DNA of 64,000 nucleotides from assembly GCA_032718475.1 (NCBI GenBank), contig JAUCBJ010001713.1:1-64000 (forward strand), written 5' to 3'. The stretch is from Nemertoderma westbladi. Its lineage: Eukaryota; Animalia; Xenacoelomorpha. Under the pieces are notes generated by a model. The model was not told the origin of the DNA, searched no databases, and saw nothing but the letters and a program-made list of their open reading frames with translations. Positions 1,942 to 63,897 of this stretch are shown piece after piece. The position numbers and the translations under genes are program-made. Every line of letters starts with the position of its first letter. Positions within the stretch are counted from its first letter, which is position 1.

Positions 1942-2019
1942 CTGTTTAGAGTATTTTTATATTTTAGAAACTGTGATTTGGTATATTTTATAGACTTAAA
2001 TCCCATTTTCTGGGAGCGG

Positions 2020-19399: not shown

Positions 19400-19611
19400 T
19401 GTCGGTTGGTGTCTGTTTGTCTATGTATCGGTCTGCGTGTCTGTTTGTCTATCTATCGGTCTGCGTGTCTGTTTGTCTATCTATCGGTCTGCGTGTCTGT
19501 ATGTCTATCTATCGGTCTGTTTGTCTATCTATCGGTCTGCGTGTCTGTTTGTCTATCTATCGGTCTGTTTGTCTATCTATCGGTCTGCGTGTCTGTTTGT
19601 CTATCTATCTA
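19400..19611. repeat. Short array of the 28/20-bp satellite (CTGCGTGTCTGTTTGTCTATCTATCGGT)
   Basis: Tandem units directly visible. Confidence 0.95.
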
Positions 19612-21114: not shown

Positions 21115-21312
21115 ACCAGTATATAAACCCTTTGCGTTATTACATCTAATTGTATCAGTTAAGTTAATAAGGCAGGTGTCTGTAGAATATGATTTTCGAA
21201 AACCGGACTGAAGTTCATAGATCAGATTTAGCCTACTAAGATGTGCCTCCAGCTGTAGATAAACAGAACGTTCTAGAATTTTAGATACAATACTTAAGAT
21301 ACTAACAGGTCT

Positions 21313-22959: not shown

Positions 22960-23539
22960 TAATTACAGGGTTCTACTTTACTATTCTTTTTATACAGAGA
23001 AACAACCTTAGCTAATTTCAGTTCGTCTGGTACTACATTATCTACGATAGAGTAATTAATAATAAAAGTAATGGGCACTTTAAGTACTTCAGCACCATCC
23101 TTAAGAAAACGGGCAGGTATTAGGTCTAGACCGGTACTTTTTGAGGCTGATAGGCTAAGTAGATTTTGAAAAACGAAATCCTCAGAAACGGGTTTTAAAA
23201 ATAACTTTTCTGAATTTTGTAACTTTTCTAAATAAAAATTATTTAGAGTTTCGGACCCTATACTATATTTATTACTTGATAACGGTAACTTCTTAACTAA
23301 ATTAGAGGCAACATTAGTAAAATAATTATTAAATAAATTACTAACTAGAGTATGATCATGAATCAGCTCACCGTTATCTTGCAGAACAATATTCGATTTA
23401 GATTTAAGGTTTTTATAACCTAAAGATTTTAGGGTAGACCATAGACTTTTAGGATTATCTTTATTCTCACTTATTTTGTTCTACAAATATTCAGATTTAG
23501 CTTTTTTTATTTCCCGTTGGACAAGGTTTCTATATTTTG

Positions 23540-26421: not shown

Positions 26422-27806
26422 GTTCGCTAACGCCGCAAAGATACGCACTTATTTTTCTTTGTTTTTGAATATGATCATGTTTATGTACTATTCCGTCTTT
26501 ATTTCCTTTTACCCATTTATTATTATTATTACCGCACGTTTATTTGCTAATTATCTCTTTCGTATTTATCCCAGTATCACTTTCATTGATCTTTCATTTG
26601 TTCTATAATTGTTTACACTACTTTCGTATTACTTTGTTTCCGTTATTTCACATATTTTACCTTTACATAATCACTTTTACATACTTACCCTGACCCGTGC
26701 TTGTTCCGTCTCCCAGAAAGTAATTTTGTAAGTAATTCAAATAGTCCTTAATTAACAAACATTATAGTGATATTTTTTGATTTGAAAGCTGTCATTGATA
26801 AAACTTCAGTCTAGATTTGTTTCTTTTTGGAATATTTTACACCTTTGTACTATACCTTTCATTCTTGCTGATCTAAATGTTCGAACCTTTATTTGATTCT
26901 CGGCCAATTTAATAAATAATAGCGTAGATATCATCCCTTGACCCTGAGACGCTTGACGACGTCCGGCAGTCTTGTGGTTTTCATAAGTAGGCTGCCCGTG
27001 ATCCCCTTACAAGGCTCTCGGCGGGCTAGCTGACCATTATACAGTATATTAGTATCTCATCAATCATTTCTCAGTAGGCTGCCTGTGATCCCCTAACAAG
27101 GCTCTCGGCGGGTTGGCTGACCATATCACACATCAAATTAATATTTCATTTGGGCGAGAGTCAGATATTGGTTCGTGTACATTTCTGACAGCGAAGATCA
27201 CCCCCTCTCTATCCATCCACATTGTAAATTAATTAATACATCACTGCTCTAACCAATCAAAATAGAGATTCACTTCACACCTTTTCCAATGATAAACACA
27301 ATCTAGCTTTCCTGATTGACCTCTCAATTATCCCCATCCCAAGTAATTCAGCTTTCAATCTCTTTAAATATCAAATTGCTCTTCATTCTATGACTTTTTA
27401 TATTTCTGGGTGACGCACAAGATTTTTTACCGCTCTACAACCGTTCATCTCATTTATGTCGGTTATATATCCGTTCAATTTACCGCTCCACAACTTTGCT
27501 TTATTTCTTTTCGAATCTTCTTTACTTTTCCCCTATTTTTTGATCGTTTCCTTGATCGATTGTACATTATTATTCTCCAATGTCCTTTTGTTTATGCGTA
27601 TCATTTCGACGTTCAAAAACTATTTCAAATAGAAACAATACTGCAGTTTACGCCAAAATAATAAATTACATTTCATTTGCAACTATTTCTTTTTGTCTCA
27701 CTTCAAATACATTAATAAATAACCAGATTTATAATTCCTTCCTTTTTTTTGAGCGTGTTAATATAATGAAAATTTAGCGTCACCTTGAGTATTAGTACAC
27801 GCACAA

Positions 27807-28750
27807 TCGGTCTGCGTGTCTGTTTGTCTATCTATCGGTCTGCGTGTCTGTTTGTCTATCTATCGGTCTGCGTGTCTGTTTGTCTATTTATCGGTCTGCG
27901 TGTCTGTTTGTCTATCTATCGGTCTGCGTGTCTGTTTGTCTATCTATCGGTCTGCGTGTCTGTTTGTCTATTTATCGGTCTGCGTGTCTGTTTGTCTATC
28001 TATCGGTCTGCGTGTCTGTTTGTCTGTGTATCGATCTGCGTGTCTGTTTGTCTATCTATCGGTCTGCGTGTCTGTTTGTCTATCTATCGGTCTGTTTGTC
28101 TATCTATCGGTCTATCTATCTATCTATCGGTCTGCGTGTCTGTTTGTCTATCTATCGGTCTGCGTGTCTGTTTGTCTATGTATCGGTCTGCGTGTCTGTT
28201 TGTCTATCTATCGGTCTGCGTGTCTGTTTGTCTATCTATCGGTCTGCGTGTCTGTTTGTCCATGTATCGGTCTGCGTGTCTGTTTTTCTATCTATCGGTC
28301 TGCATGTCTGTTTGTCTATCTTTCGGTCTGTTTGACTATCTATCGGTCTGCGTGTCTGTTTGTCTATCTATCAGTCTGCGTGTCTGTTTGTCTATATCGG
28401 TATGCGTGTCTGTTTGTCTATCTATCGGTCTGCGTGTCTGTTTGTCTATCTATCGGTCTGCGTGTCTGTTTGTCTATCTATCAGTCTGCGTGTCTGTTTG
28501 TCTATCTATCAGTCTGCGTGTCTGTTTGTCTAACTATCGGTCTGCGTGTCTGTTTGTCTATCTATCGCTCTGCGTGTCTGTTTGTCTATCTATCGGTCTG
28601 TTTGTGTACACGGTCTGCGTGTCTGTTTGTCTATCTATCGGTCTGTTTGTCTATATATCGGTCTGCGTGTCTGTTTGTCTATCTATCGGTCTGTTTGTCT
28701 ATCTATCGGTCTGCGTGTCTGTTTGTCTATCTATCGGTCTGCGTGTCTGT
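27807..28750. repeat. 28/20-bp satellite array
   Basis: Tandem units directly visible. Confidence 0.97.
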
Positions 28751-31049
28751 TGGTCTCACTGTCGCATATTATTAATTCAAATTTAATATAATCAAATAAA
28801 TCCCTTAAAATAATAATATAAATTAATCCCTTCCATTATTGATATCTAAGAACACAGTTTCAAATCCAAATGCGATTTATAAACCAGTTTCTTGTCCATT
28901 GAAATTGAAAGCAAATTGAAGACTCATTGGTTCTGAAAAGGTTATTTAACAACCAATTAATTATATTAATATAAATTATACTATATTTAATACAAATATA
29001 TTTTTATAATAATATATAATAGTGAACTACATAATATAAACCCAATTAAAGTTAATCAAATATACAGTACACAAGCACAGAAGGACACAGATACAGAGCG
29101 TGCCAAATTAATATTATATATATTTATATAATGCTACAGGCGTCAACCTGCCAATCACCACATCCTCTGAGGATGAGTCACGGCGGTTCTACCACGCACA
29201 ACTACCCGTTAGTGGTTAGTAGTAGACCTAGTGGTGGGGTGAGGGGGGGGGGTGTTTAATGGTTAGTAGTAGAAGTATACGTAGATGTAGTGATAGATGG
29301 GGGGGGGGGGGGAGGGGGTTGTTTAACGCGGTTAGTACTGTAGTAGTAGACGTAGTGCGATAGAGGATGGGGAGGGGGTAATTTAATGGTTAGTAGTAGA
29401 CATAGTGATAGAGGGTGAGGGGTGGGGTTATTAACAGTTAGTAGTATAGGGGGGGGGGGGGGGGGGGGGTGTTTTGTTTAACAGTTAGTAGTAGAATAGT
29501 GATAGGGAGTGGGGGTGTTTGTTAATATGAGGCATGTTTTCTCTGATCGTAATGGTTGTTATCAGGTTAAATGTGTAACCTCTATCTCATATATTGCTCT
29601 CGTCATTATTGGTTCATTTTGTATAAGTTAGTGGGATAGTTGGTCTGTTGCCTGTAGGGGTTGACAGTATTTGATATTGATGACTCATATTCTGAAGGAC
29701 TAATAATGCTGCCAGGCTAATCCTAAGGTCGGTTATGAGTGTTTCATTAATATTGTAGGAATGGGAGCATTGCGTGGTGGTTGGAAGGTCTGTAATTCGA
29801 GAGTCACTGGTGTTTGTTTATTATAGTCCATTAGCTGGAGTCATAAATCAACAGTTGACATGTTTATTCGTTTTAAAAAATTTCCCATAGATGTTGTTGG
29901 TTTGTTCTTGGTGAATATTCAATATAACAGGGGTATAAATTTATCTCCATAATTCTATCTTATAACAGAGGTATAAAATCGCGCTTTATCAATAAGATGA
30001 TAGCAAATGGGGTATCTTTGGGTTGTTGATATCATTATAAATGTAATGAAAAGGCAGTGGTGGTGTGACATTGATTTTTGATGTGGTATAGTGAGATGTA
30101 TTGGTAATCTGTTAATTGGTAGGGGAATAGTGTTTAGATGGATTGTTTTGTTGTGTATTTAGGAGAGATATTGTCCGTTATCATTATAGGTATAGAACCT
30201 TTATTAAATAGTAATAGTATTTATTACTAACTAATCCAATTTTATTCTGTTTTTCTGAAGTTGGGACGGTAGTTTGAGCGTTTTAGAGAAAAAAGTGGAA
30301 GAATAGATTTAGTTGGAAATTTGTTAGTTGGGTAGTGCGCTATGCTGTATCTTACCCATAGGTGCCCAGCCCAACACCTACAGGGGGTATTTAAGGAATA
30401 CCCTACCCTGGGTTAGATGTCTCTAGTGTTGCCACTAAAAGTTGCGGAACCCTATACCGCATGGAAATTAAAATCCCTGAAAGTAAAAAAATTGGTAAAA
30501 TGGGATGAAAGGGCCTGAAAATATGTAAATTAATGAATTTGAAATATTTCTGAAAAATATACATGAAAAAGAAGTAAATATCAGCCATATTAATTGCCAA
30601 TTTGTTCGTTAGTTTATATCATGCTAGATGAATTACAATCCCAGTATTTGTTAGATTTGTACAGTACCAATTACTTTAATTTTTAACATGCATGAGTATG
30701 TAAGAGTATGTATTGACACTCGGCGAAATGATAGATGAGCATTGCAATTAATTTAGTAAAAGTTTTGAACAATATGTACAGTATTCCATTAAGTGAGATT
30801 ATGACTGATATTCTCAGTAAATCATGCATTCGTCTTGCAAGCTTACCGCTTTAGTTGTATGATTCAACTTATCCTGTTTTTTTTTGTATTGGGTACAATC
30901 TTTCAGATCGTAGGTGTGGGTGGGTGTCGCGGTGTGGGGTAGGGTAGTGGGTTGGTGTATGTTGATTTTATGTTCATTTTCGTCAGAGAGCGAGAGTGGG
31001 AGAGGTGATGAGTTGGGGCAGTTCCGCGGCAATATCCGTGTGCAATATC

Positions 31050-32331
31050 GGTGTATCGATCTGCGTGTCTGTTTGTCTATCTATCGGTGTGCGTGTCTAT
31101 TTGTCTATCTATCGATCTGTTTGTCTATCTATCGGTCTGCGTGTCTGTTTGTCTATCTATCGGTCTGCGTGTCTGTTTGTCTATCTATCGGTCTGCGTGT
31201 CTGTTTGTCTATATCGGTATGCGTGTCTGTTTATCTATCTATCTGTCTGCGTGTCTGTTTGTCTATCTATCGGTCTGCGTGTCTGTTTGTCTATCTCTCG
31301 GTCTGTTTGTCTATCTATCGGTCTGTTTGTCTATCTATCGGTCTGCGTGTCTGTTTGTCTATCTATCGGTCTGCGTGTCTGTTTGTCTATCTATCGGTCT
31401 GCGTGTCTGTTTGTCTATTTATCGGTCTGCGTGTCTGTTTGTCTATCTATCGGTCTGCGTGTCTGTTTGTCTATCTATCGGTCTGCGTGTCTGTTTGTCT
31501 GTGTATCGATCTGCGTGTCTGTTTGTCTATCTATCGGTCTGCGTGTCTGTTTGTCTATCTATCGGTCTGTTTGTATATCTATCGGTCTATCTATCTATCT
31601 ATCGGTCTGCGTGTCTGTTTGTCTATCTATCGGTCTGCGTGTCTGTTTGTCTATGTATCGGTCTGCGTGTCTGTTTGTCTATCTATCGGTCTGCGTGTCT
31701 GTTTGTCTATCTATCGGTCTGCGTGTCTGTTTGTCCATGTATCGGTCTGCGTGTCTGTTTTTCTATCTATCGGTCTGCATGTCTGTTTGTCTATCTTTCG
31801 GTCTGTTTGACTATCTATCGGTCTGCGTGTCTGTTTGTCTATCTATCAGTCTGCGTGTCTGTTTGTCTATATCGGTATGCGTGTCTGTTTGTCTATCTAT
31901 CGGTCTGCGTGTCTGTTTGTCTATATCGGTATGCGTGTCTGTTTGTCTATCTATCGGTCTGCGTGTCTGTTTGTCTATCTATCGGTCTGCGTGTCTGTTT
32001 GTCTATCTATCAGTCTGCGTGTCTGTTTGTCTATCTATCAGTCTGCGTGTCTGTTTGTCTAACTATCGGTCTGCGTGTCTGTTTGTCTATCTATCGCTCT
32101 GCGTGTCTGTTTGTCTATCTATCGGTCTGTTTGTGTACACGGTCTGCGTGTCTGTTTGTCTATCTATCGGTCTGTTTGTCTATATATCGGTCTGCGTGTC
32201 TGTTTGTCTATCTATCGGTCTGTTTGTCTATCTATCGGTCTGCGTGTCTGTTTGTCTATCTATCGGTCTGTTTGTCTATCTATCGGTCTGCGTGTCTGTT
32301 TGTCTATCTATCGGTCTGCGTGTCTGTTGGT
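31050..32331. repeat. 28/20-bp satellite array (chimeric)
   Basis: Tandem units; variant pattern matches 26160-26420 first and then 27807-28750. Confidence 0.95.
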
Positions 32332-35089
32332 CTCACTGTCGCATATTATTAATTCAAATTTAATATAATCAAATAAATCCCTTAAAATAATAATATAAAT
32401 TAATCCCTTCCATTATTGATATCTAAGAACACAGTTTCAAATCCAAATCCGATTTATAAACCAGTTTCTTGTCCATTGAAATTGAAAGCAAATTGAAGAC
32501 TCATTGGTTCTGAAAAGGTTATTTAACAACCAATTAATTATATTAATATAAATTATACTATATTTAATACAAATATATTTTTATAATAATATATAATAGT
32601 GAACTACATAATATAAACCCAATTAAAGTTAATCAAATATACAGTACACAAGCACAGAAGGACACAGATACAGAGCGTGCCAAATTAATATTATATATAT
32701 TTATATAATGCTACAGGCGTCAACCTGCCAATCACCACATCCTCTGAGGATGAGTCACGGCGGTTCTACCACGCACAACTACCCGTTAGTGGTTAGTAGT
32801 AGACCTAGTGGTGGGGTGAGGGGGGGGGGTGTTTAATGGTTAGTAGTAGAAGTATACGTAGATGTAGTGATAGATGGGGGGGGGAGGGGGTTGTTTAACG
32901 CGGTTAGTACTGTAGTAGTAGACGTAGTGCGATAGAGGATGGGGAGGGGGTAATTTAATGGTTAGTTGTAGACATAGTGATAGAGGGTGAGGGGTGGGGT
33001 TATTAACAGTTAGTAGTATAGGGGGGGGGGGGGGGGGGGGGGGTGTTTTGTTTAACAGTTAGTAGTAGAATAGTGATAGGGAGTGGGGGTGTTTGTTAAT
33101 ATGAGGCATGTTTTCTCTGATCGTAATGGTTGTTATCAGGTTAAATGTGTAACCTCTATCTCATATATTGCTCTCGTCATTATTGGTTCATTTTGTATAA
33201 GTTAGTGGGATAGTTGGTCTGTTGCCTGTAGGGGTTGACAGTATTTGATATTGATGACTCATATTCTGAAGGACTAATAATGCTGCCAGGCTAATCCTAA
33301 GGTCGGTTATGAGTGTTTCATTAATATTGTAGGAATGGGAGCATTGCGTGGTGGTTGGAAGGTCTGTAATTCGAGAGTCACTGGTGTTTGTTTATTATAG
33401 TCCATTAGCTGGAGTCATAAATCAACAGTTGGCATGTTTATTCGTTTTAAAAAATTTCCCATAGATGTTGTTGGTTTGTTCTTGGTGAATATTCAATATA
33501 ACAGGGGTATAAATTTATCTCCATAATTCTATCTTATAACAGAGGTATAAAATCGCGCTTTATCAATAAGATGATAGCAAATGGGGTATCTTTGGGTTGT
33601 TGATATCATTATAAATGTAATGAAAAGGCAGTGGTGGTGTGACATTGATTTTTGATGTGGTATAGTGAGATGTATTGGTAATCTGTTAATTGGTAGGGGA
33701 ATAGTGTTTAGATGGATTGTTTTGTTGTGTATTTAGGAGAGATATTGTCCGTTATCATTATAGGTATAGAACCTTTATTAAATAGTAATAGTATTTATTA
33801 CTAACTAATCCAATTTTATTCTGTTTTTCTGAAGTTGGGACGGTAGTTTGAGCGTTTTAGAGAAAAAAGTGGAAGAATAGATTTAGTTGGAAATTTGTTA
33901 GTTGGGTAGTGCGCTATGCTGTATCTTACCCATAGGTGCCCAGCCCAACACCTACAGGGGGTATTTAAGGAATACCCTACCCTGGGTTAGATGTCTCTAG
34001 TGTTGCCACTAAAAGTTGCGGAACCCTATACCGCATGGAAATTAAAATCCCTGAAAGTAAAAAAATTGGTAAAATGGGATGAAAGGGCCTGAAAATATGT
34101 AAATTAATGAATTTGAAATATTTCTGAAAAATATACATGAAAAAGAAGTAAATATCAGCCATATTAATTGCCAATTTGTTCGTTAGTTTATATCATGCTA
34201 GATGAATTACAATCCCAGTATTTGTTAGATTTGTACAGTACCAATTACTTTAATTTTTAACATGCATGAGTATGTAAGAGTATGTATTGACACTCGGCGA
34301 AATGATAGATGAGCATTGCAATTAATTTAGTAAAAGTTTTGAACAATATGTACAGTATTCCATTAAGTGAGATTATGACTGATATTCTCAGTAAATCATG
34401 CATTCGTCTTGCAAGCTTACCGCTTTAGTTGTATGATTCAACTTATCCTGTTTTTTTTTGTATTGGGTACAATCTTTCAGATCGTAGGTGTGGGTGGGTG
34501 TCGCGGTGTGGGGTAGGGTAGTGGGTTGGTGTATGTTGATTTTATGTTCATTTTCGTCAGAGAGCGAGAGTGGGAGAGGTGATGAGTTGGGGCAGTTCCG
34601 CGGCAATAATAATACTGCCTCTCAATAAAGAGACCCCCTTTACTGCTATCAGGGACGCGTTGTTCGACAGAGCCCCGTCAGCAAAAACAGCCAGTACCGC
34701 TAGTCGGTGGGGTTGACTTGTTGACGAGAGGCTATTTACAGGCGCATCGGTCAACCATTACTGACCGTGCCAAATTAATACTGAATGGTAATTATAACTT
34801 AGCAAGATAACAGTAATGTAAACAATGTACCTAAGTTAATTGGTAAGAATAAAAGTAAAAATAATGATTCAATATTATTGATACTAGTTAAAACAGATAT
34901 AACAGCAACAAATACACTTTAATAGTTATATTAACTTAGTCACATACTGTAAAGAAACTAAAGTACTGAGTTCAGCTTTATTGCGTGGCGATTTCGTGGC
35001 CACGCAGCCCGGAACTGCGTAACTGAACTACGTAATTAGTTAAACAATTTAAAAGCAATCTACCTCTAATAATGCAGCCACATAAATCA

Positions 35090-35316
35090 TTAATCACATG
35101 GCAATAATGGTTCCAATTGCGTTTTTTCATTATTGTTACCAAAAATTGTTGATCGAATGCGAATTGTAGTTTGTTTGACCAGATTTAACAAACCAAATAA
35201 TGCAAATAAGACTATCTTTAGTAACAATTCACAAATGTCAGCGAGTGTCATAATACTTGCACCGAGGAATAGTCCCATTGTTCCACCAATCGCGGGAATA
35301 ATGTCCGTAAATTGAC
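35090..35316 (-). CDS. DEG/ENaC (ASIC-like) channel, last coding exon (TM2 and C-terminus)
   Basis: tttcag acceptor, phase 1; QFTDIIPAIGGTMGLFLGASIMTLADICELL with the GAS selectivity filter; TAA stop. Confidence 0.92.
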
Positions 35317-35522
35317 CTGAAATGAAAAAAAAAGGTTAAACAATGCCATTCCGTTTCACTTCCCGTATTAACTGCACAGTGTACTGTATAGGCCTAATGA
35401 TGTAGTTACAGTAAAGTTAACGGAGGCGCCCAAACTGTGTTAGCGTGTAAGGCGCCACTTTAACTTAACTCGTATTAATGTTGAACCTCCTTAATCAGAA
35501 CACTCAAACTATACACAACCCT

Positions 35523-40130: not shown

Positions 40131-41315
40131 TTATACCTTTTTAGTTTTACATAGATATTTATGGTAACTCCAGGCCTTTGTCTGACATTGGCGGTTACAG
40201 TAGGGTTCTTTACAATTGCTGCAGCATTCCTTGACTCCCTTGCGCTTGCAGAGTTCGCAGATTGCATTCCGTGACTCGAAATCCGTCGAAAGCGACTGAT
40301 AATTGGTAAGGAGATTAAAATCGCTGAACTGTAGATTCCCGGAACTCTTGACAACACGCACGAATTCTGCGAACGTTGACGCAGTTTCTTCGAGAGGTTT
40401 CTTGAAGTTCTTCCCAAGTTCTTCAGCCAGTTTATATACACAATCAGTTTCTGATACTTTATATTCTTCCTGATCACTATTTATTCCCATTACCTGCGAT
40501 TTATTATCCTCCTGAGTATCCGCTTGAGACTCACAACTATTTAGTACCTCAGGTTTTATATCCAAACCAAAACGCTGAAATAACACCAACCAATCCGCTA
40601 CTTTGCGTGGTTTGTCGTTGGTGTTTTGGTACCAGTTGGCGGCTAGCAGTCGCCACCTGGCGTCTTTTTCACGTAAATCGTCATGAACCTCGGCAGTAAA
40701 AGCTTCTCTTAGCGCTTTCATCGCTCTGGCGTCAGTAGGCCAGCCACCTACAGACAACCCGTAGTCCCAAGCCCGAAGCATGTAGAACATCGACTTTCGA
40801 TAACTAACAGGACATCCGTTTCCAGTTAGGTACATAATCGCCAGCATGGAATAAGTACGGCCATCACGCCAGACATCAACCAGGGGGTCGGTAATCGCAA
40901 CTCTACACAAATGGAATGCTTTTATACTATCAGTATTAATAATATTATCAGTTGTTTCACGCAAACCAAAGTAGATTTCAGCCAGCGCGTAATTCGCAAT
41001 ACCAACACCGCCTGCGGCTGACTCCTGTATCAGACTAACCGTGTCCTTCCCGTATATGCAGTTATCCTCGTTGGTGTCCGTATCGGCCATCAACCACGAG
41101 GCCCTGGCTGCCATGGCGACAGGATGGCCGACTTTAGCGCCCTGTTTGAGATGACGATGAGTTGCTTCTAAGTCCCCATCCTTGTTCGCTTGGGCAGCGG
41201 AGATTAAAGACTGGTGTCCGGCTTGGTCGGGATTAAAGTTTATCTGCGTGAGGTATGTGGAATCATCTTCCGTAGTTTCTGACATGCCTGTAATATTCAA
41301 TAGGCCTTCTTCCAC
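40131..41315 (-). CDS. SEL1-like repeat / MYND zinc-finger protein, single ORF nested in the channel intron
   Basis: C-terminal CELC...CCSNCKEPYCNRQCQTKAWSYHKYLC is a zf-MYND; ANYALAEIYFG and LAIMYLTGNGCPVSYRKSMFY are SEL1-like; start uncertain (first in-frame ATG ~41286). Confidence 0.8.
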   Translation of the reverse strand: MEEGLLNITGMSETTEDDSTYLTQINFNPDQAGHQSLISAAQANKDGDLEATHRHLKQGAKVGHPVAMAARASWLMADTDTNEDNCIYGKDTVSLIQESAAGGVGIANYALAEIYFGLRETTDNIINTDSIKAFHLCRVAITDPLVDVWRDGRTYSMLAIMYLTGNGCPVSYRKSMFYMLRAWDYGLSVGGWPTDARAMKALREAFTAEVHDDLREKDARWRLLAANWYQNTNDKPRKVADWLVLFQRFGLDIKPEVLNSCESQADTQEDNKSQVMGINSDQEEYKVSETDCVYKLAEELGKNFKKPLEETASTFAEFVRVVKSSGNLQFSDFNLLTNYQSLSTDFESRNAICELCKRKGVKECCSNCKEPYCNRQCQTKAWSYHKYLCKTKKV

Positions 41316-41819
41316 AATGACACGATATATTAATTAATAAAAAACAAACAATTAAACCTATCTGTCCGTAGGCCACTTGATCAGTATACCAGTATACAGC
41401 GCTGTACCCACAATATATGCCTATCTGCACATTGCGCATTGCCTATCCTTATTTCGTCCATTTCATTTTAAAACAACCTAAATGACAAAATTGACCTTTC
41501 CTGTAAAATGGCATTTTTGAATCCATTAAATCCATTAAATGTAACGATTATAAACAAAAACAGTTATGGTATTGGAATTATGTAACATATTAGGTAGGAA
41601 ACTATGTAGAGGGATAGGTTGTTTAAAAAAAATATTACATTTTGAACAATGATTACTCAAAAAGCATTAAAACCCTAAGACAAATTCGATTATTAAGTTT
41701 TAAAAATATAAAACAAATCCCCCTCTATCATAATAAACAACAATAAATTCTAGCTCCTGATTCGTTGTTTCCAATTTTATATACTACTAGGATCGGCATG
41801 CTGCATTGCAGCTGCATTT

Positions 41820-44010
41820 TTAAGAATGCTGTGCCGGCTTGTCAACAAAATTGCACCGCCACAACTCCCTATCACCCATGACATTTGCTAGATCATCCGC
41901 ATCTTCAAGGCCAGTGTCCTTTAAGATGCGTCTCAAGAAAGTCATGGGCTGTCCACCATGCTTATTCACTCCATGAGACTGCCAAAGTACAAGATTATGC
42001 ACTGGCTGGTCCTCACGGCGAAAGCAATGTCCTGCAAAGCGGAGGCGATTTTGTTCTAGTGTCAAGCTTGGGGGAACCAATGAGACACCTCCAATGTTAT
42101 ATAGTGTCTGGTTGGAGATGTATGCATTGTACTTGACACAATGAACCCGGCGTAGCATTCTTGTGAATGTGCCATCCAGAGATTTGGTGTCCTCAGCAGT
42201 TAGAGCCCAGCATGGACTCCCGTAGAGGAGTACTGGAACTACTGCTGCTCTAAATAATCGGACCTTAAGTTTCCGATTAATTCTCGGTGACTTCCAAATC
42301 CTGGAAAGCCTATTCAAGGCTGCCCATGCCTTTCCCTTACGTATTCGAAGGTCCTCACTTGACTTCCGGATCCATGATCCCAGGTAACAGAAGTCGTCCA
42401 CATGCTCAAGCATACCATCCTTTGAGCTTATGCTCATCCGATCAGAGACTTGCTGAGGTCTTTCAAAGTTAACTGTCAAAATTTTGGTCTTTCTGGAGTT
42501 AATAAAAAGACCAACACTAGAAGCAGCATGTTCTAATGAGCTGAGGAGCCGTTGGGCTCCCTCTAATGATTCTGAGAGTACTCCTAAGTCATCAGCAAAG
42601 TCTAGATCAGTTAGGTACTTGGCAGGATTTCCTCGACTTCTGGACCCAGTAGGTGGAGTTATCATCACCCCATCATCATTATTATGATCTAAGGACATGC
42701 GTAGAACATAGTCAACCACAATAATGAACAAGAATGGTGCAAGTGTGTCTCCTTGGAGGACGCCCCATAACACTTCAAATGGTTCTGTGTCACCGTCAAC
42801 AGTAGATACAAATGTTGTCGAACCATCGTATACTGATCTGATTGCTGCAATAATTTCATCAGGAATCCCATATAATGAAAGTATGCTGAACATACATGAG
42901 CGAGAGACTGAATCAAAGGCCTTGAAGAAGTCAACAAAGATAACAGCCAGATGCCTGTCTTTCTTTTTTGATAATTCTTCAATTATCCTTCTAAGTGCCA
43001 AAATGGGCTCCATGGTCCCACGACCTTTACGGAACCCATTCTGATTTCCACGGAGCAGTCTCTCAATGGGATCCCTGATGCGATTTAATAGAATCCTATT
43101 GTATAGCTTTGCAGCAATCGAGATCAATGAGATTCCCCGAAAAGAACCATAGAATGTTAGGTTGCCCTTCTTGGGAACTGGCACCAACTTATTTGTTTTC
43201 ATTTCTTGTGGGACTCTTGTTGTTCGGTACATTTGTTTTCATTTCTTGTGGGACTCTTGTTGTTCGGTACATGTCTACTATGATGGGATAGATGAGCTTT
43301 AAACACTCAGGTATTTTAATGACCTCAGGGGGAACACCATCTACTCCACTGGCACGATTGGTCTTAATGCTCTTTGCAGCAGCCTTCACTTCTGCAAAGG
43401 AGATATCGCCAATGGGAATATCTGGGAGTACAGACTCAGACACTTTTACTTCTATAAAGTTATCAGGCAATACCCTGTCATTATTGAGGAGCTTTTCAAA
43501 GTGGGCTTTCCAACCATTGAGGCGATCGGCTGGTGATTCAGCCTTAACCTTGGTGGTTGGTTGGCTTTTCCGCCCAGTAAGCAAATTGATCGATTTCCAT
43601 GCCTGGGATGATTGCCTGCTGTCGTCAGCATCATTGATGGCATCAACCTGTTGGTTTATTACCTCCTGTAGATTAACAGAGTACTGCCTGTTCAGGGACC
43701 TAGATGCAGCCTTAACTGCATTCTTGGCCGCTGTAGTCTGTTTGAGTCGGGACTCTTTCTGCGCCTTATGAAGGTCATTTCGGCACTTCTGAATTTTGTT
43801 GTCAGTCCAGGGGGCCCTTTACCTGTTTCGAGGGTATACAGGAACTGTTTCTGCAGCTGCTAACTTAACTGCTTCTGTAAAGGCAGTATAGCCCTCACAG
43901 TGATCTGCCGCCTCAGAGGCAAGAGCCTCATACCTGTTGCTCAGCTGTAGTGTGAAGCTGGATCTCACACTTGGCTGTTGCAACAGAGAGGACCAGTCAT
44001 GCCGCGGCAA
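41820..44010 (-). mobile_element. RTE-clade LINE, 5'-truncated, frameshifted by a ~41-bp tandem duplication at 43190-43272
   Basis: FRGISLIS, QNGFRKGRG, FVDFFKAFDSV, GVLQGDTLAPFLF, DFADD, FCYLGS, RLRFAGHCFR motifs. Confidence 0.92.
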
Positions 44011-54115: not shown

Positions 54116-55219
54116 TTAGATGCCCAACATTATCAGCATTAAACTGGATCCGGACAACACCTTGATTCGTGTTTTAGTTTTATTGTCGATATACATGCTG
54201 AGGACATCGCCTTTCAGTAGTTGGAGAACCCCATTTAAATTAATCGTAAACACGGCGCTGTTGGTCGAAACTCCAGCTATATTTTGCAGCGATGCCGTGT
54301 TTTCCCCTTCGCAACTCGAATTAACACACATTACCACGCGGACGTGATCCCTCGCTTTGTAATGCGACGCGTTTCTCTTGCGCACGTGAATCAACGCCGT
54401 TATCTGGTAGAAGGCGGTGCGCGGCGATGTAAATCTACCCGATTCCAAGTCCATAGAGGTACCCCGAAGGAAGGTGCCTCCGCCCAGACTCATCTGGTAG
54501 TTACGCACTTCCATAACGGACTTGCGATCAACGATCCTCGAGTTGTGCAACTGAACGTGAAATCCAGTGGATATTCTATGCGGCATAGAATCTTCCCAAA
54601 CAAATAGTTGTGGACTGGAGTGCATCACCTCCAAGTCGCAGGTGGGACAATGCTCATTAAGTAAATGAGTGGCTCTTCGTTCTGCGGCGTCAGCCACTAT
54701 CTCTTTAAACTGTTTCAACATATCATCAACGGTAACGGCACCACCTTTGGGTCCCGGGGGCCCAGCGGGGCCTTGTGGTCCAACCGGACCCGGAACGTGC
54801 AGAGTATTCCGACCCCCACCACGTCCTCCCCCTTTAGACTTCTTCCTGCCTTGTTTACCGCCATTCCTACGACGGCTATTTCCATTCCTCGTCGTCGCAT
54901 CATGCCGAACGAAGGTAAACCAACTGCTCTCTGGGTCTAAATTCTCATCGGTCCCCTGGAAATCGGCGGCAACATTTGTTTCGTGGTCATTTCTCAAAAT
55001 AGCATTATTGACCTTATCCGCCACACTCAGAATGTGTTCTTCATGGCTGCTATCCGAAATCTCTACGCTCCTTGGGCTATCCACATCAGGGGTTGGACCA
55101 CTCACACACGTAAACACCAACAATAATAAGAATACTGCTCTTTTTTGGATTAAACCAGAGATGGGAAAGACAAACCCTCCACCAATAATAGAAATATGTA
55201 AAACTATGAAAGCACTCAT
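54116..55219 (-). CDS. C1QTNF12: Adipolin/erythroferrone-like C1q/TNF-related protein (FAM132 family), single ORF nested in the channel intron
   Basis: Hydrophobic N-terminus, basic RKKSK site, short collagen GPVGPQGPAGPPGPKG, MLKQFKEIV..AAERR, and C1q/TNF domain motifs FLRG..SGRFTSP..YQ..HV..RDHVRVVMC...C..VFTI..GVLQL..YIDN; orthology to C1QTNF12 versus ERFE not resolved. Confidence 0.88.
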   Translation of the reverse strand: MSAFIVLHISIIGGGFVFPISGLIQKRAVFLLLLVFTCVSGPTPDVDSPRSVEISDSSHEEHILSVADKVNNAILRNDHETNVAADFQGTDENLDPESSWFTFVRHDATTRNGNSRRRNGGKQGRKKSKGGGRGGGRNTLHVPGPVGPQGPAGPPGPKGGAVTVDDMLKQFKEIVADAAERRATHLLNEHCPTCDLEVMHSSPQLFVWEDSMPHRISTGFHVQLHNSRIVDRKSVMEVRNYQMSLGGGTFLRGTSMDLESGRFTSPRTAFYQITALIHVRKRNASHYKARDHVRVVMCVNSSCEGENTASLQNIAGVSTNSAVFTINLNGVLQLLKGDVLSMYIDNKTKTRIKVLSGSSLMLIMLGI

Positions 55220-56570
55220 TTTTGCAACATATTAAATGATTTCGCTTAAATTAATCTAAATTACCGGTACCGGTCGGTAGTATAAAATTTGAAATATCCG
55301 GTGTAACAGAGAATTTTCACTCCCGATGCAATACACAAAAGCGCCCCCCAGCAACCGGTTAAAATTACCTAGCAGCCTAGTGCATTCTCTCTCCAGGGGT
55401 GTTTTTTCCCTAAGTGTATTTTTAACCTCCTCCGACAGGGCTGGCAAAGTACACCAAGCAGGTTTTTGTAAACCTAGGTTTTTGTTGATTTTTTTCAAAA
55501 ACCTAAAATTTGAAAAAGCCTAAAACTAGGTTTTTGACCACAAAAAAGAGCCAAATTGCTTGTTTTTTGAAAATTTCTGATGACAAAAATATTTTGGTTC
55601 CATGCATGAAACCCACAGACTAAAGAATTTTCAGTCTTTAACTAAGCCGACAATAAAACCTCACTGCTGGCAGCTGGACTGACTAATATTACACTATCCC
55701 TTTTTATAACAAAAATCAAGTTGATTATTTTAATATATTGTAGGCTTACAGGTATCTACTGATCTACCAGTCTGCCACTACCAGTGCTGTATAAAATATA
55801 ATCTTGAACAAATGCGGCACCATATAGGCCTAATTTATCTAACCATAACGAATGAACTGATGAACCAATCAAGCTCAGGCAGTAAGTGAGTAAGGTGAAT
55901 CTAATCAATCAATATTACAAATCAAGGCTCTTTCCGGTTTCAGGGGCACTGAATTTTTAACAACTGCAGTATTACTGTCAACTGTTATTTATTGTACCGG
56001 TTCAGCAGTATTGGTGTACACAGTACAGGTGTATAAACACAACCTGGCGCTGGCACCTGGCAACAGCTTCCATCAGTACATTAGATGTAGTCTCAGTCTC
56101 TCAGACCGCAGACCACACACTGACAGACTCAGTTGGCTGCAGTACCTGTAGCTGTAATAACTACTGCGGGAATTGTTACTTTGGGGACCGTCTGACCGTC
56201 CCTTAAAACACTTATCTGCTTGCTTATATATATATTTATATATAGGCTATACGGTACCGCTTGTATTTTATGAAACGCTTTTTACAATTTTTTTCATTAC
56301 AGCATTACCGGTAACCTTTTTTCTACCGACTGTCTGACCATATGGTTTCCCTCAATTAGTAAAGTGATTGTTTATTGTTTTGTTTAGAAAAGCCCGCATC
56401 TGTAACCTGCTCCTTTCCCTCAATTGGTACAGTCATCTCGCCGCAGATAATGTGCGGCGAGGTGTCTCACTATAAATGCCATTTCGCCGCAAATTATCGG
56501 ACACCTCGCCGCAAGTCAATATTAATCATTTATTTCTATATTTACAGGGAAGCCTACTAAGCCTAGTTAT

Positions 56571-57461
56571 GGCATTGGACATTATTATAAGAAGAAATAA
56601 AATAATACGGTAAGGTTTGTTGTTCTATTATAATTACTGTATTACATTATATTACATGTTATTATAGATACAGTAAGAGTATTTGAGTACCGGTAACGTA
56701 TTAGATTATAGTAAAATACGGTCATAAAGATTCATAGAGGACTATGAATGACATATAATGAGTATTCTGACATAGAGGTCAGATCAGAATACGGTCATTG
56801 AAGTTGTTTCCATGTCATTGATTACGGTACTTTGCAGCGTTTCACCAGAACGCTGTTAAGTTGACATAATGTCAAATGTAACAATAACTATTTACGTACA
56901 TGTACAATTGACTAAGTACGGAAACGGAAGTAAGGCAACATTATGTAATAAGGTTTATACAGTAATACTGTATGTCTATGTTAAATCTTAATTACAAATG
57001 TAATGTTCTAGTGGATTGATATACTTATATTTGTTGTCAGTCACTTTTTTTGTTAAGAGCAAAATTATCGTCGAATTACATTTCAAATTAATTTCCATGA
57101 CATTAATAATAATAATCAATAATATTGCATTAAATATTATAATTTTTTTTTAATTTCTTACATTACCTATTTTATTTATTGGTGTGGAATTAATATCGCA
57201 CTACCAAATCAACAGGACAAATTTAAGAAATTCCAACAAATAATTATTTATTACATGGGAAAAAAGTAGAACTTTTTTTCACTATTCTCGAGGCATTTTT
57301 AATACGTTACTCAAATACCGGTCAGCCGGTACCGTACTCTTGTAAACTTTATCTATAATAATACAGTAATACAGTAATTATAATAGAACAACAACTGAAC
57401 AAACCTTACCGTCTGACCGTATTATTTTATTTCTTCTTATAATACATAATGTCCAATGCCA
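56571..57461. repeat. Inverted-repeat pair (decayed MITE)
   Basis: GGCATTGGACATT..AAGAAGAAATAAAATAATACGG at 56571 is mirrored at 57340-57461. Confidence 0.65.
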
Positions 57462-57489
57462 TACTGCCAAAACTGGGTCCGACGAATTT

Positions 57490-58087
57490 GTACAAAAAAG
57501 TACAAAAAAATACAAAATAGTACAATACAGTACTGCAGTACAAAAGAGTACAATAAAGTGCAAAAATAGTACAAAAGAGTGCAAAAATAGTACAAACGAG
57601 TGAGAATCGCTCGCAAAACGTGTATCCAAGTGTAGTTAAAATCGTTTAGAGAAGCGCACATGATGTGCAAAATAAAACAAAGATTGTGGGGCGAGCCATG
57701 CATTGAGCGGGGGCTGATCTAGCTGTCTAGCAGTCAGAGAGTAGGCCCCTATTACAATACATCTTATGAGTTTTAATGCAGCCTTTTGTGTTAAAAAAAC
57801 ACAAAAAACGGTCCCAAGCCCGCAAAATTGCAGAGGGAGAACTCAATAAAGTTGCAGATAGTGGCATACATACAGACAGACAGACATACATAGCCTACAT
57901 AATGTACAGTCGCATACAGTCTAGAGTCGCATACGTATAGAGTATACGTAGTGTAGGCCTAGTTGGTAGTGTAGACTAAGGACTACACTGGTATACACGT
58001 TTTGTATGCGTTTCTCACTCGTGACTCGTTTGTACTCTTTTGTACTATTTTTGCACTCTTTTGTACTATTTTTGCACTTTATTGTAC
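57490..58087. repeat. Inverted arrays of GTACAAAA/GTGCAAAA enclosing a HINE-like end and a twister ribozyme
   Basis: 57538-57630 is the reverse complement of 57990-58087; GTGGGGCGAGCC terminus at 57686. Confidence 0.7.
57768..57844 (+). ncRNA. Twister ribozyme, type P1
   Basis: P1 GAGUUU/GAACUC; L1 UAA and GA; P2 UGCA/UGCA; T2 GC/GC; P3 UUUUGUGUU/AACACAAAA; conserved A; P4 CGG/CCG; L4 UCCCAAGC; T1 UCCC/GGGA. Confidence 0.9.
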
Positions 58088-58885
58088 GGGTAATTCCATC
58101 CAAATTCGACCAATCGCGGTGGCATGGGGTCATCAATTTCGTTTATTTTTGGATATATGGTCGGAAATGGTACAAAATGACACCTGATGAAATATTTCTG
58201 ATGATGGTGTATTGGTTTTCGAGATATTGCTGTTCAAAGTTTGCGATTTATTCGAACATATCCCCAATGAAACCTATAGAAAATCTTTCTGACTAGTGGG
58301 TGGAGTGTCATTTTATGTTTATTGTACACATAAATAGGTCTCATACACATTAAAACCATGAATAAATACCACCCACTTGTCAGACCAACTTTTCTATGTG
58401 GCCAAAGATTGGACTTTTCGACAAATTTTGTCTTTTTGAGGCTTGAATTAGAGTGGTCTGATTAGTGGGTAGCCCAAAACATTTAGTAAATAGTTAGATA
58501 TACCAAAGGGGGGTTCTGTGGTACAATTTTCATGTACCACCAGCAAGTCAGACTTCCATACCAACATCTGGAAAATTGAAACTTTCCAAAATTGCCATAC
58601 TTCGGAACATCACTGCAAGCGTCTGATAAAAGATGGGTGCTTGAAATGAATCATGAGTAGTAACATGGATAAGGGAAACATGCATGACAAGTTTCAGATC
58701 CCACCCATGCCTTCTTCAGTATATATTATTCAATTTAAAAGTTCAATTTTCAAAATTAATCGTCAGATTAAATACTTTAGAACCAAGGTCTGCTTATGAG
58801 GTTGCTCTCATAACCAGCACACATTAAGTATTTAAATGTTTTAGACACAATAAAGGCTGTTTTTTTCACCACCCACTTGTCAGAT
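58088..58885. mobile_element. DNA transposon end with CCACCCACTTGTCAGA subterminal repeats
   Basis: Starts GGGTAATTCC; the motif recurs in both orientations at ~58290, 58370, 58457 and 58870. Confidence 0.45.
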
Positions 58886-60165
58886 ATTTTATGTGTAACA
58901 AACAAAGGTAAATAATTTTAACATATTATTGACTAATTTCAATACCCAATGAGTTATATACCTCCTTCTGATACTATTAATTATTATATCATAATAGAAA
59001 GAAAAGCTGTTTGAAATTCATCTATATAATTCCCCAATCCCAGCCAAGCAGCCAAGGGCAGCAGGGAATGGAACGTAATACAGTATTGTTCATTATGATG
59101 AGGCAAGTCAGTGATAATTAATATAGTTATTATGGTAGAAAAGATAATAGATCAATTATTGAGTATAGCAGTATTGTAGATTATGCAATTCCTTTATGAA
59201 CAGTGATTGCAGACAGCTGCGTAAATCGACAATATTTATTGCACACATCGCACACCACCCAAATCTTATGATTTTTTTTGTATCACTGGCCCAAAGTTTT
59301 TTACACTTGTAGCAGATATTCTCCTCCTCATCTGTCTGATCAGTAGGAACATCAACACAAGGGACAACAGCAACCTTGCCTTGAACTGCCTTTACTTTCT
59401 TTGTTGTAGAAGATGATAAAGTACGGCATTCCAGCTTCCCATCAGCAGTAATATCATATCTAGCCATGGTATGACCGCGTCCCTGCCTCTGGTATCAAGA
59501 AGTGGTGTCACGTGTGGCAGGGACGCGGTAATACCATGGATATGATATTACTGCTGATGGGACTGTGGGAAGCTGGAATGCCGTACTTTATCATCTTCTA
59601 CAACAAAGAAAGTAAAGGCAGTTCAAGGCAAGGTTGTTGTTGTCCCTTGTGTTGATGTTCCTACTGATCAGACAGATGAGGAGGAGAATATCTGCTACAA
59701 GCTGACAAGTGTAAAAAACTTTGGGCCAGTGAACAAAAAAAATCAGAAGATTTGGGTGGTGTGCGATGTGTGCAATAAATATTGTCATGCACCAGCTAGC
59801 TGCCTGCCAGTTAATTTCGATTACGATGCAGAATTTGTCTGCAATCACTGTTCATAAAGGAATTGCATGATCTACAATACTGCTATACTCAATAATTGAT
59901 CTATTATCTTTTCTACCATAATAACTATATTAATTATCACTGACTTGCCTCATCATAATGAACATACTGTATTACGTTCCATTCCCTGCTGCCCTTGGCC
60001 GGGATTGGGGAATTATATAGATGAATTTCAAACAGCTTTTCTTTCTATTATGATATAATAATTAATAGTATCAGAAGGTATATAACTCAATTGGGTATTG
60101 AAATTAGTCAACAATATGTTAAAATTATTTACCTTTGTTTGTTACACATAAAATATCTGACAAGT
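58875..60165. repeat. 1.3-kb foldback palindrome containing a PHD-finger coding remnant
   Basis: Arms 58875-59487 and 59516-60165 with a 28-nt spacer; right arm encodes ICYK..WVVCDVCNKYCHAPASCLP....FVCNHC. Confidence 0.85.
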
Positions 60166-61370: not shown

Positions 61371-61785
61371 TAATTCCGCATTCTGTGATTTCTTTAGTAA
61401 CAAAGCCATAATTATATTTGTTTTAAACTGTATCTGTGTGTTGTATAGTTTATGTCATTAAATTCCAAACTCTACAGTAGGGAGAATCACACTGCCGGAT
61501 CGGTCCGTTTAAACTCCCAAATCACAACTAAATCACACAAATTAACACACATAAAATCACACAAAATCACACATAAATTATAATTATTGGTCTTGGCTGC
61601 TACCTTTTACAGTAGGCCTACTGTATCTGATCTGCACTCGGATTGGTGAGATCGCCTGGAGGTCACCAGTTCAACGTCAATGCAAAACGAAAAAAAAATT
61701 ATAATGGCAGTAGAAATTGGAGAGTAATACTCTTGTACTGGACTAATAGGCTACATTCATTATGTATAATCACTGTACTGCCAAC

Positions 61786-62096
61786 CTGTATACGGTGTGA
61801 TGGCAAGGGAATTTGCATTGACTCTGACACACGTTGTTTTGTGTCGATCCATCTCGGTCATTCATGCGTGCGAGTACGCACACGGAGGTCTCAAAGGCGG
61901 TGCAGCGCCGACCAGCTTCGGGTCCAAGGCCGTACACAGAAGGAACGCAACCGCAGGCGTCTAGCGTTGTATTAGCGATGCATTCCAGAACGCAAGCCTG
62001 CCATGAGTACGGCGTATTGTATGTGAACCGCAGAGGGTTGTTGTAATCATTTATACATGGGGTATGTTCAGTATTCACTGATTTGTGTTCTTGGAG
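61786..62096 (-). CDS. DEG/ENaC channel exon (Cys-rich thumb)
   Basis: ttgcag acceptor phase 0, GT donor phase 2; PYSWQACVLECIANTTLDACGCVP...C....CV....CQSQCKFPCHHTVY. Confidence 0.92.
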
Positions 62097-62199
62097 CTGC
62101 AATAAAATTATTATAAAGAAATATTAAAATTACGTAATCCATTATTACGTCATGACCCCGTAATATTGTGTCATTTTCTGATGACACGGACACCTGTAC

Positions 62200-63388: not shown

Positions 63389-63689
63389 CTGAAAGGCAAA
63401 GATAATAAACATTTTGATACTAGGTTTTCATACATACGTACATACTGTACAGTACGGTAGGTCAAATTTGACAGTGTAGATTATACTGTAATTGATCGTA
63501 ATCTGTTTATAACTCGTATTGTTGATATCTTTTTTTAGATGTTTATTGCGAATTCTGTTTCACATGGTAGGCCTACTATATATATGTAGTTTAAGATGTT
63601 CATTTATTTTCGGCCACACCTATTGACTCAATTACTACAGTATATAACAACTGCAGATACGTAGACATTGTAGGGTTGGTACAACTTAC

Positions 63690-63897
63690 CTTCCTTTATG
63701 ATGTCCATTAAAGGGTCGTTGTTGTGTCGAAACTCTTCTGGAAGAAAAGCTTCAATATCTTCTTTTGTAGCTGAACTCTGCATAATCTTACGAATATTTT
63801 CATTAGCTTCTTTGCCAAACGATTCTAGGAACGATTTTCTGAGGATATTGTTTACGCATATCGAAACACTCGGGAACAATAAACCCGTTTCGTTTAC
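63690..63897 (-). CDS. DEG/ENaC channel exon (post-TM1); upstream exons lie outside the window
   Basis: ttatag acceptor phase 0, GTAAGT donor phase 1; LLFPSVSICVNNILRKS matches the FPxVTICN motif. Confidence 0.9.

What the first reader, a model, noticed from the sequence alone, without database searches (positions are those of the whole stretch)
57768..57844. Intact type-P1 twister ribozyme inside a DNA-transposon-like cassette, antisense in the channel intron
Seen: every element of the twister consensus is present and pairs (P1, P2, P3, P4, pseudoknots T1 UCCC/GGGA and T2 GC/GC, L1 U^AA and GA). The predicted cut is between 57774 and 57775, and an AATAAA follows immediately. It starts ~80 bp inside a GTGGGGCGAGCC terminus of the TAC^A family, is followed by a CAGA microsatellite, and is enclosed by inverted GTACAAAA arrays. 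Known: eukaryotic twisters are mostly associated with retrotransposons. Inference: a self-cleaving RNA carried by a HINE-like element would be unusual, and its intactness suggests recent arrival or selection.
Basis: partly seen in the sequence, partly recalled or inferred. Interest (0 to 1): 0.85.

Follow-up and report, generated by a model that had tools for sequence, protein, structure and literature searches.

The report
Twister ribozyme inside foldback-like transposon
A complete twister RNA motif, predicted to cut itself, sits in the middle of a repeated animal DNA element with long mirror-image ends, where it is likely cargo picked up from a retroelement and likely spread by DNA transposition; twisters in animal repeats have so far been tied to retroelements.

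Summary
The twister is real: Rfam twister-P1 match at 57770-57841 (+), E 5e-10, 48.8 bits (below the gathering score, as were 17 of 19 phage twisters with the same core); all 28 pairs of P1-P4, T1 and T2 are standard; U^AA and the catalytic G are in place. It is antisense in an intron of an ASIC/ENaC-type gene. Contigs of four DNA runs show a multi-copy family. Its sharp shared edge is at 57475, the start of the left inverted arm, not at GTGGGGCGAGCC. Arm, motif and ribozyme are linked in other copies, and the bases upstream of the cut are fixed, so this is not a Perere-3/RTE-type 5' end. The anatomy is that of a non-autonomous foldback element with the ribozyme in its middle domain; HINE membership is not met. 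This copy has lost its right end. Selection on the ribozyme is not shown, and recent amplification explains intactness. Cleavage, expression, target duplication and transposase are untested. I found no twister in a class II element in print in my searches.

The parts
57475..57489 (.). Left terminus (flanking domain) of the foldback-like element; may begin one base earlier
   Evidence: Loose ends with poorly agreeing flanks before 57475/57476 in 11, 9, 7 and 1 contigs of runs X1, X2, X3, X4
57490..57596 (+). Left arm, outer domain: tandem GTACAAAA-type repeats
   Evidence: TRF period 10 and 21; highest depth
57597..57636 (+). Left arm, inner non-repetitive domain
   Evidence: Aligns to the reverse complement of 57981-58023
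57656..57668 (.). Short palindrome at the start of the middle domain
   Evidence: Read from the sequence
57685..57700 (+). 16 bases identical to the start of a HINE-like repeat copy at 13325 (-); internal here
   Evidence: no loose ends listed at this place (tables cut)
57768..57844 (+). Type-P1 twister ribozyme motif; predicted cut between 57774 and 57775; predicted general base G57833
   Evidence: cut site and catalytic roles from PMC8501958 passages
57845..57850 (+). AATAAA directly after P1
   Evidence: 1.5 per kb on this strand; absent from one X4 copy
57865..57892 (+). CATA/CAGA microsatellite
   Evidence: (CATA)n in a subfamily (loose ends)
57924..57980 (.). Right part of the middle domain; other copies go on with different letters here
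   Evidence: Loose ends behind 57923 and before 57981
57981..58087 (-). Right arm (inner and outer domain), cut short at 58087 by an unrelated repeat; the right terminus is missing
61770..62123 (-). ASC-family (ASIC/ENaC/degenerin) channel exon upstream of the host intron
   Evidence: Pfam PF00858 E 5e-13, profile 264-372
35093..35335 (-). Last ASC-family channel exon (second membrane helix), downstream of the host intron
   Evidence: Pfam PF00858 E 3.9e-6, profile 427-455

Best explanation
The 77-base motif is a type-P1 twister, predicted to cleave itself, that sits at a fixed place in the middle of a multi-copy element with long inverted arms, and it is likely cargo captured once from a retroelement end and likely multiplied by cut-and-paste movement of a non-autonomous foldback-type transposon. 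Shown: the fold and catalytic letters; the repeat family; the shared left edge at 57475; linkage of arms, motif and ribozyme in other copies; antisense position relative to channel exons; loss of the right end in this copy. Inferred: any plus-strand transcript through the element would fold the ribozyme and be cut at U57774/A57775, with G57833 as base and A57775 as acid, leaving a 2',3'-cyclic phosphate and a 5'-OH AA end. The channel pre-mRNA carries the complement and would not be cut. A transposase supplied in trans would move the arm-to-arm unit as DNA, so the ribozyme would not be needed for movement and would decay copy by copy. This copy, lacking its right terminus, would be immobile.
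For: Fold. Family: contigs 57682-57778 and 57761-57851 at depth 1571 and 1562 in X1, against 21-45 for low-depth contigs of the same run, about 35-75-fold (a rough guide only, the tool warns that depth is no copy number). Edge: 28 contigs in 4 runs (at most 3 samples) break off into unlike flanks at 57475/6. Linkage: X3 contig 57596-57774 (depth 157); one 639-base X4 contig holds 57584-57682 and 57771-57845; X3 joint 57846 to 58024 ties the ribozyme to a right arm. Anatomy matches the flanking/outer/inner/middle layout with a non-coding, variable middle described for Tetris (PMC4079207 passages). Decay: changes at 14 of 77 ribozyme positions against 16 of 121 neighbouring positions, counted by hand; they include P4 changes with no compensating partner listed and an insertion in loop 4. 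Known animal and plant twister hosts are retroelements (PMC8501958, PMC7761336, PMC11933835 passages).
Against: No target-site duplication, right terminus or transposase was seen, so DNA-type movement rests on anatomy. Diverged copies realign at 57765-57771, the 5' edge of the ribozyme, after 43-59 unlike bases, and one X4 copy stops matching at 57845, its 3' edge; this looks like constraint on the ribozyme across subfamilies. The common variants fall in the P3 loop (57793-94) or keep pairing (57813 C>T), and none is listed at 57775-76, 57816-17 or 57833-44. One copy (1496-base contig in X2, 501-base in X3) matches only 57768-57855 with long unlike sequence upstream, so some twisters may lie outside the arms. 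The retroelement donor was not found. Cleavage is untested, and pseudoknot-free folding gives P2 and P4 only about 0.2 pairing probability (that model cannot score T1/T2).
Confidence: 0.55

Rival explanations
1. The foldback family keeps the twister for its own benefit. Cutting a read-through transcript between the arms, before the second arm is made, would limit long hairpin RNA and so small-RNA silencing, or would end transcription within the element.
For: The ribozyme lies between arms with a 48-base exact inverted stretch and ends 137 bases before the right arm. P1 and P3 are still predicted to form in the full-length RNA (0.87 and 0.96). Ribozyme-bounded similarity in diverged copies and common variants confined to tolerant positions. 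8-base insertions are common or nearly fixed in the spacer (57681, 57718) but only at low depth in the ribozyme (57819-20).
Against: It works on one strand only; cut halves could still pair; no depletion of changes overall (14 of 77 against 16 of 121); p = 0.15 for the window copy.
Confidence: 0.17
2. The twister belongs to an independent small retroelement, such as a solo LTR of about 171 bases (TG at 57685 to CA at 57855-56) of a retrozyme/TRIM type, a SINE or a Penelope-like tail, which is still mobile on its own and is nested in the arms in only some copies.
For: TG start, AATAAA shortly before a CA, and the same 4 bases on both sides with a one-base overlap; animal Helenus TRIMs make 4-base duplications (PMC10886601 passages); one copy without the left part; unreviewed notes on other genomes report twisters in LTRs and Naiad tails.
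Against: The 4-base repeat is not above chance (2 hits among 1450 start/end pairs), and most family copies carry extra letters at the left side. No loose ends are listed at 57685 or the cut site, whereas 28 are at 57475/6 (tables cut). No tRNA gene is called; no second LTR; the bases upstream of the cut are fixed, unlike Perere-3.
Confidence: 0.18
3. One reading: a HINE/Helentron derivative carries the twister in place of its core and moves by rolling-circle transposition; the arms are a separate host element.
For: 16-base identity with a HINE-like terminus; a palindrome at 57656-68 and a microsatellite give a HINE-like order when read on the minus strand; contigs of another family join at 57865-68; an unreviewed note reports a Helitron-type transposase in this genome.
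Against: No second subterminal repeat, no partner terminus and no core similarity; the shared edge is at the arm, not at the motif.
Confidence: 0.07
4. The motif looks right but does not cleave, because of the AU-rich P3, the AA linker before P4 or misfolding.
For: Score below Rfam's gathering value; low predicted P2/P4 pairing without pseudoknots.
Against: All 28 pairs and the catalytic letters are present; the core is letter-identical to 62 phage loci, found with a pattern taken from this core, of which only 2 of 19 tested reach the gathering score.
Confidence: 0.05

Closest known systems
Type-P1 twister ribozyme (Rfam RF03160; features read in PMC8501958 passages)
   Same: P1-P4, T1, T2, U^AA cut site, conserved G; core identical to 62 IMG/VR loci (35 distinct)
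   Different: AU-rich 9-bp P3 and 6-bp P1; 48.8 bits against 55-68 for 19 phage copies; activity untested; no flank similarity to the phage loci
Foldback elements such as Tetris of Drosophila virilis (PMC4079207 passages; FB and sea-urchin TU named there, otherwise recalled)
   Same: Long inverted arms with flanking, tandem-repeat outer and inner domains around a non-coding variable middle; dispersed copies with a sharp end
   Different: Small (arm about 160 bases, 8-10-base units); the middle holds a ribozyme; target duplication and transposase unknown; right end lost in this copy
Twister T-variants at the 5' end of Perere-3/RTE (PMC8501958 passages; RTE statement in PMC7761336 passage)
   Same: Twister in a dispersed animal repeat, cut leaving a 5' AA
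   Different: Here both P1 strands are part of the repeat, there is no target duplication at the cut and no RT frame downstream
HINE / DINE-1 (Helentron derivatives; PMC4067079 passages)
   Same: A terminus-like motif shared with HINE-like copies in the window, a short palindrome, a tetranucleotide microsatellite
   Different: No pair of subterminal repeats, no partner terminus or core; the unit's edge lies 210 bases further out
Plant LTR retrozymes and animal Helenus TRIMs (PMC7761336, PMC10886601 passages)
   Same: Non-coding element with a ribozyme (retrozymes); TG...AATAAA...CA frame possible around the motif
   Different: Twister, not hammerhead; single unit; no tRNA-like promoter called; no convincing duplication; inverted arms outside

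Membership tests
Type-P1 twister ribozyme | Helices P1-P4 with P1 open | tested here: met
   22 of 22 standard pairs
Type-P1 twister ribozyme | Pseudoknots T1 and T2 | tested here: met
   6 of 6 standard pairs
Type-P1 twister ribozyme | U^AA in L1 and the conserved catalytic G | tested here: met
   57774-76 and G57833; definition from PMC8501958
Type-P1 twister ribozyme | Rfam RF03160 gathering score 67.2 | tested here: inconclusive
   48.8 bits, full model length, E 5.3e-10; 17 of 19 phage twisters with the same core also fall below
Type-P1 twister ribozyme | Self-cleavage | not testable with these tools
   Needs a bench assay; no RNA run was on offer
Foldback-type non-autonomous DNA transposon | Long inverted arms with tandem-repeat outer and unique inner domain | tested here: met
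Foldback-type non-autonomous DNA transposon | Dispersed copies sharing a sharp terminus | tested here: met
   28 contigs in 4 runs end at 57475/6 with unlike flanks
Foldback-type non-autonomous DNA transposon | Non-coding middle domain of variable content | tested here: met
   Stop-to-stop frames over the element are 108 residues or less and largely repeat-derived; unlike letters before 57981 in different copies
Foldback-type non-autonomous DNA transposon | Two matching termini with an 8-10-base target duplication | tested here: inconclusive
   Right terminus absent from the window; no whole copy could be read
Foldback-type non-autonomous DNA transposon | Autonomous partner (Mutator- or P-type transposase) with the same ends | not testable with these tools
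   No genome held
HINE / DINE-1 (Helentron derivative) | Pair of 12-15-base subterminal inverted repeats near both ends | tested here: not met
   Only one such motif in the element; partner terminus found 5 times elsewhere in the window, not here
HINE / DINE-1 (Helentron derivative) | Element begins 2-4 bases before the subterminal repeat, in a T-rich/TT site | tested here: not met
   Shared edge is at 57475; none listed at 57685 (loose-end tables cut by 247 and 41 rows)
HINE / DINE-1 (Helentron derivative) | Short 3' palindrome | tested here: inconclusive
   Palindrome at 57656-68 fits only a minus-strand reading whose 5' end was not found
Perere-3/RTE 5' twister variant | Target duplication next to the cut supplies the 5' strand of P1 and varies between copies | tested here: not met
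   Contigs at depth about 1560 span the cut with fixed upstream letters; no duplication beyond T-runs
Perere-3/RTE 5' twister variant | Endonuclease/RT frame downstream | tested here: not met
   None downstream in the window; the RTE-like frame at 41820-43818 is on the other strand, 14 kb away, with a different 3' end
LTR retrozyme / Helenus-type TRIM solo LTR | TG...CA ends with a 4-6-base target duplication | tested here: inconclusive
   TG at 57685, CA at 57855-56, 4-base repeat with one-base overlap, not above chance
LTR retrozyme / Helenus-type TRIM solo LTR | tRNA-like promoter in the LTR (Helenus) | tested here: not met
   ARAGORN finds none; degenerate A/B boxes would be missed
Penelope-like element pseudo-LTR | Ribozyme inside the direct or inverted terminal repeat | tested here: not met
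   The ribozyme lies between the arms, once; definition from PMC8557442 passages

The most novel reading that the evidence does not exclude
A DNA transposon family maintains a working twister ribozyme as part of its own life cycle: the ribozyme cuts read-through RNA between the two inverted arms and so limits hairpin RNA and host silencing, or marks an unrecognised RNA step in the movement of a foldback-like element.
Probability: 0.17. Interest if true: 0.8.

Novelty: new variant of a known kind. Interest (0 to 1): 0.42.

Why it matters
Twister ribozymes are common but their biological roles are mostly unknown; the roles described in the papers I read are at retroelement ends. A family of near-identical copies that carries a full twister between inverted arms widens the ways in which ribozymes spread in animal genomes. 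It also offers a clean test: the family tree can show whether a self-cleaving RNA is kept by selection in an element that should not need an RNA step. If it is only cargo, it is a curiosity and a warning that an intact ribozyme in a young repeat says little about function.

Tried and rejected
No RNA holder listed; this says nothing on expression. 57929-57980 had no cover in the runs laid; a filter may explain it. Run X4 shows far lower depth on all repeats here and holds 0.29 of the words; I did not use it for copy number. Family-specific patterns found nothing in metagenome contigs (0 and 0) or viral contigs (0 and 0). Earlier scan notes gave no look-alike sequence and no twister note for this genome. 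Horizontal transfer from phage was considered because 62 viral loci share the core, and rejected as unsupported: the pattern itself fixed the core, P1 and P3 differ, the loci shown are 55-66% G+C, and there were 0 hits outside the ribozyme. An empty site was sought with one loose end from X4 and not found in the window. The spacer 57685-57767 folds no better than shuffles (z -0.51). The bacterial promoter scan is not informative for an animal. Protein searches did not name the lineage. Literature: searches for twister + ribozyme + DNA transposon (7 papers), self-cleaving ribozyme + terminal inverted repeat (4), ribozyme + Helitron (35, 20 listed) and ribozyme + foldback + transposable element (3) showed no title or abstract start describing such a pairing; of these I read passages of only two (PMC11933835 and 10.64898/2026.07.22.740005). 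The library lacks most subscription papers and Repbase was not available; no supplements were read.

Full report
Rfam finds twister-P1 at 57770-57841 on the plus strand over the full model, 48.8 bits, E 5.3e-10, and it is the only strong RNA match in the window. It does not reach the gathering score of 67.2. That is weak evidence against it: of 19 phage loci with the same core, chosen from 62, only 2 reach that score (55-68 bits). Laid out base by base, P1 (6), P2 (4), P3 (9), P4 (3), T1 (4) and T2 (2) give 28 of 28 standard pairs, with U^AA at 57774-76 and GA at 57833-34. These are the defining features given in PMC8501958 (passages). A strict descriptor hits once in the window and never in 60 simulated windows. 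The 91-base region folds with z = -2.8. A pseudoknot-free model supports P1 and P3 (0.80-0.98) but not P2 and P4 (about 0.2) in every context tried; it cannot score T1 and T2.

Position. ASC-family exons lie on the minus strand at 63628-63897 (E 0.014), 61770-62123 (E 5e-13) and 35093-35335 (E 3.9e-6), in profile order. If they form one gene, the ribozyme is antisense in an intron and the pre-mRNA would not be cut. The organism is an animal by these genes; the lineage was not identified.

It is a repeat. No genome is held, so contigs of four DNA runs (at most three samples, three studies; one may be the window's source) were laid on the region. In X1, contigs covering 57682-57778 (no mismatch, one gap) and 57761-57851 (one mismatch) have depth 1571 and 1562, against 21-45 for low-depth contigs in that run: on the order of tens of near-identical copies, with the tool's warning that depth is no copy number. 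X2 and X3 show similar high depth; X4 holds three diverged copies at depth 13-27.

The unit. The best-supported loose ends, with poorly agreeing flanks, lie before 57475 or 57476 in 11, 9, 7 and 1 contigs of X1-X4. None is listed at the GTGGGGCGAGCC motif or at the cut site, though 247 and 41 rows were not shown. From that edge run 15 unique bases, a tandem GTACAAAA-type array (57490-57596) and a 40-base inner part, mirrored at 57981-58087 with a 48-base exact stretch. The right arm stops at 58087, where another repeat begins, and the right terminus is not in the window. Other copies tie the parts together: an X3 contig spans 57596-57774, one X4 contig holds both the inner arm and the ribozyme, and an X3 joint links 57846 to the right array. 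This is the flanking/outer/inner/middle layout of foldback elements as described for Tetris (PMC4079207 passages). Target duplication and transposase could not be tested, so I call it foldback-like.

Not a HINE, not a Perere-type end. The motif is real: 7 matches against 0.02 expected, one of which (1866-1877) lies in an unrelated frame, and 16 bases identical to the copy at 13325. But the family's other terminus occurs five times elsewhere and not here, its core has no counterpart beyond microsatellite and short matches, and the CAGA repeat points opposite to those copies. By the definition in PMC4067079 (passages) membership is not met. In Perere-3 the 5' strand of P1 comes from the target and varies (PMC8501958); here it is fixed in the high-depth contigs and no RT frame follows. 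A solo-LTR reading (TG at 57685, AATAAA, CA at 57855-56, 4-base flanking repeat with one-base overlap) is possible but not above chance, and most copies differ at the left flank. One copy, seen as a 1496-base contig in X2 and a 501-base contig in X3, matches only 57768-57855; it may be a broken member or a twister outside the arms.

Selection. For: diverged copies realign at 57765-57771 after 43-59 unlike bases, one ends at 57845, common variants sit in the P3 loop or keep pairing, and no change is listed at the L1 AA, the L4 AA or 57833-44. Against: 14 of 77 ribozyme positions carry a variant against 16 of 121 beside it (counted by hand; flanks below 80% identity are not counted, which biases this towards no difference), P4 changes show no listed compensation, and the window copy differs from the majority at 1 of 77 against 10 of 204 positions, p = 0.15 (one search left 15 rows unshown). 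The question is open, and youth of the family is enough to explain intactness.

Mechanism. Most likely (0.55) the twister came from a retroelement end, was fixed in the middle domain of a foldback-like element, and was multiplied as DNA cargo. It would cut any plus-strand read-through RNA at 57774/57775 but would not be needed for movement. Rivals are a still-independent small retroelement (0.18), a function for the foldback family such as limiting hairpin RNA (0.17), a HINE carrier (0.07) and an inactive motif (0.05).

What is known. Twisters are tied to RTE 5' ends (PMC8501958, PMC7761336; passages) and were enriched in Copia and Gypsy elements of plants (PMC11933835; one passage). The review PMC6765202 (passages) lists retroelement hosts for self-cleaving ribozymes. 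PMC8557442 (passages) and 10.64898/2026.07.22.740005 (passages; no mention of twister) cover Penelope-like hosts, and PMC10886601 (passages) covers Helenus. Four searches aimed at ribozymes in class II elements showed no such case in titles or abstract starts; most of those papers were seen as listings only. Unreviewed notes from this scan report twisters in LTRs and Naiad tails of other genomes and none with foldback or TIR wording; they were used as leads only.

Verdict. A real, known-type ribozyme in a setting I did not find described: fixed cargo of a young foldback-like family. Interest 0.42; 0.8 if the family is shown to keep it by selection.

Noticed in passing
window 57318-57760 and window-wide: 8-base indels that differ between repeat copies (57359, 57390, 57408, 57529, 57718) fall on 'five bases, CAG or CTG, same five bases' motifs, and the insertions listed at 57681 and 57747 would create such motifs; 25 occur in the repeat-masked window against 0-4 in 20 simulations. 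This agrees with the unreviewed note e1-10611558 on excision footprints.
   Followed up: partly
window 58874-60165: A 1.3-kb palindrome (87% alike) holding two inverted copies of a short cysteine-rich, PHD-like frame (59156-59494 -, 59558-59857 +); the PHD likeness is by eye, Pfam gave no good match.
   Followed up: partly
window 35093-63897 (-): The ASC-family channel gene appears to span at least 29 kb and to enclose, on the same strand, an intronless adipolin-like frame (54116-55231), a Sel1/MYND frame (40131-41333) and an RTE-like retroelement (41820-43818).
   Followed up: partly
window 5423-6828, 13163-13519, 21312-21569, 22902-22960: A HINE-like repeat family with two unlike termini, a GTCY-type microsatellite in two copies and a shared core; one copy sits in a satellite without a target duplication. 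The family name rests on recall and PMC4067079 passages.
   Followed up: partly
window 19398-32341: Large 28/48-base satellite arrays, with near-exact duplications 28757-29340/32334-32912 (99.0%) and 29521-31034/33095-34608 (99.9%) that may be very recent or an assembly duplicate.
   Followed up: no
window 56568-56681 and 57335-57463: Another inverted pair (74% alike) directly left of the twister element, itself repetitive in the runs; run X4 leaves the window sequence at 57334, a possible insertion polymorphism whose empty site was not found.
   Followed up: partly
L004, L035: Phage loci with clustered ribozymes: L004 has two twister-P1 and two twister-P5 matches within 2 kb; L035 has two twister-P1 and two hammerhead type II matches.
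   Followed up: no
window 715-1993: Frames with a weak zinc-knuckle match (E 0.005), possibly a gag-like remnant.
   Followed up: no
window 7015-7530, 8847-9155: Two related short frames that look by eye like the end of a Penelope-type GIY-YIG region; no Pfam support, label recalled.
   Followed up: no
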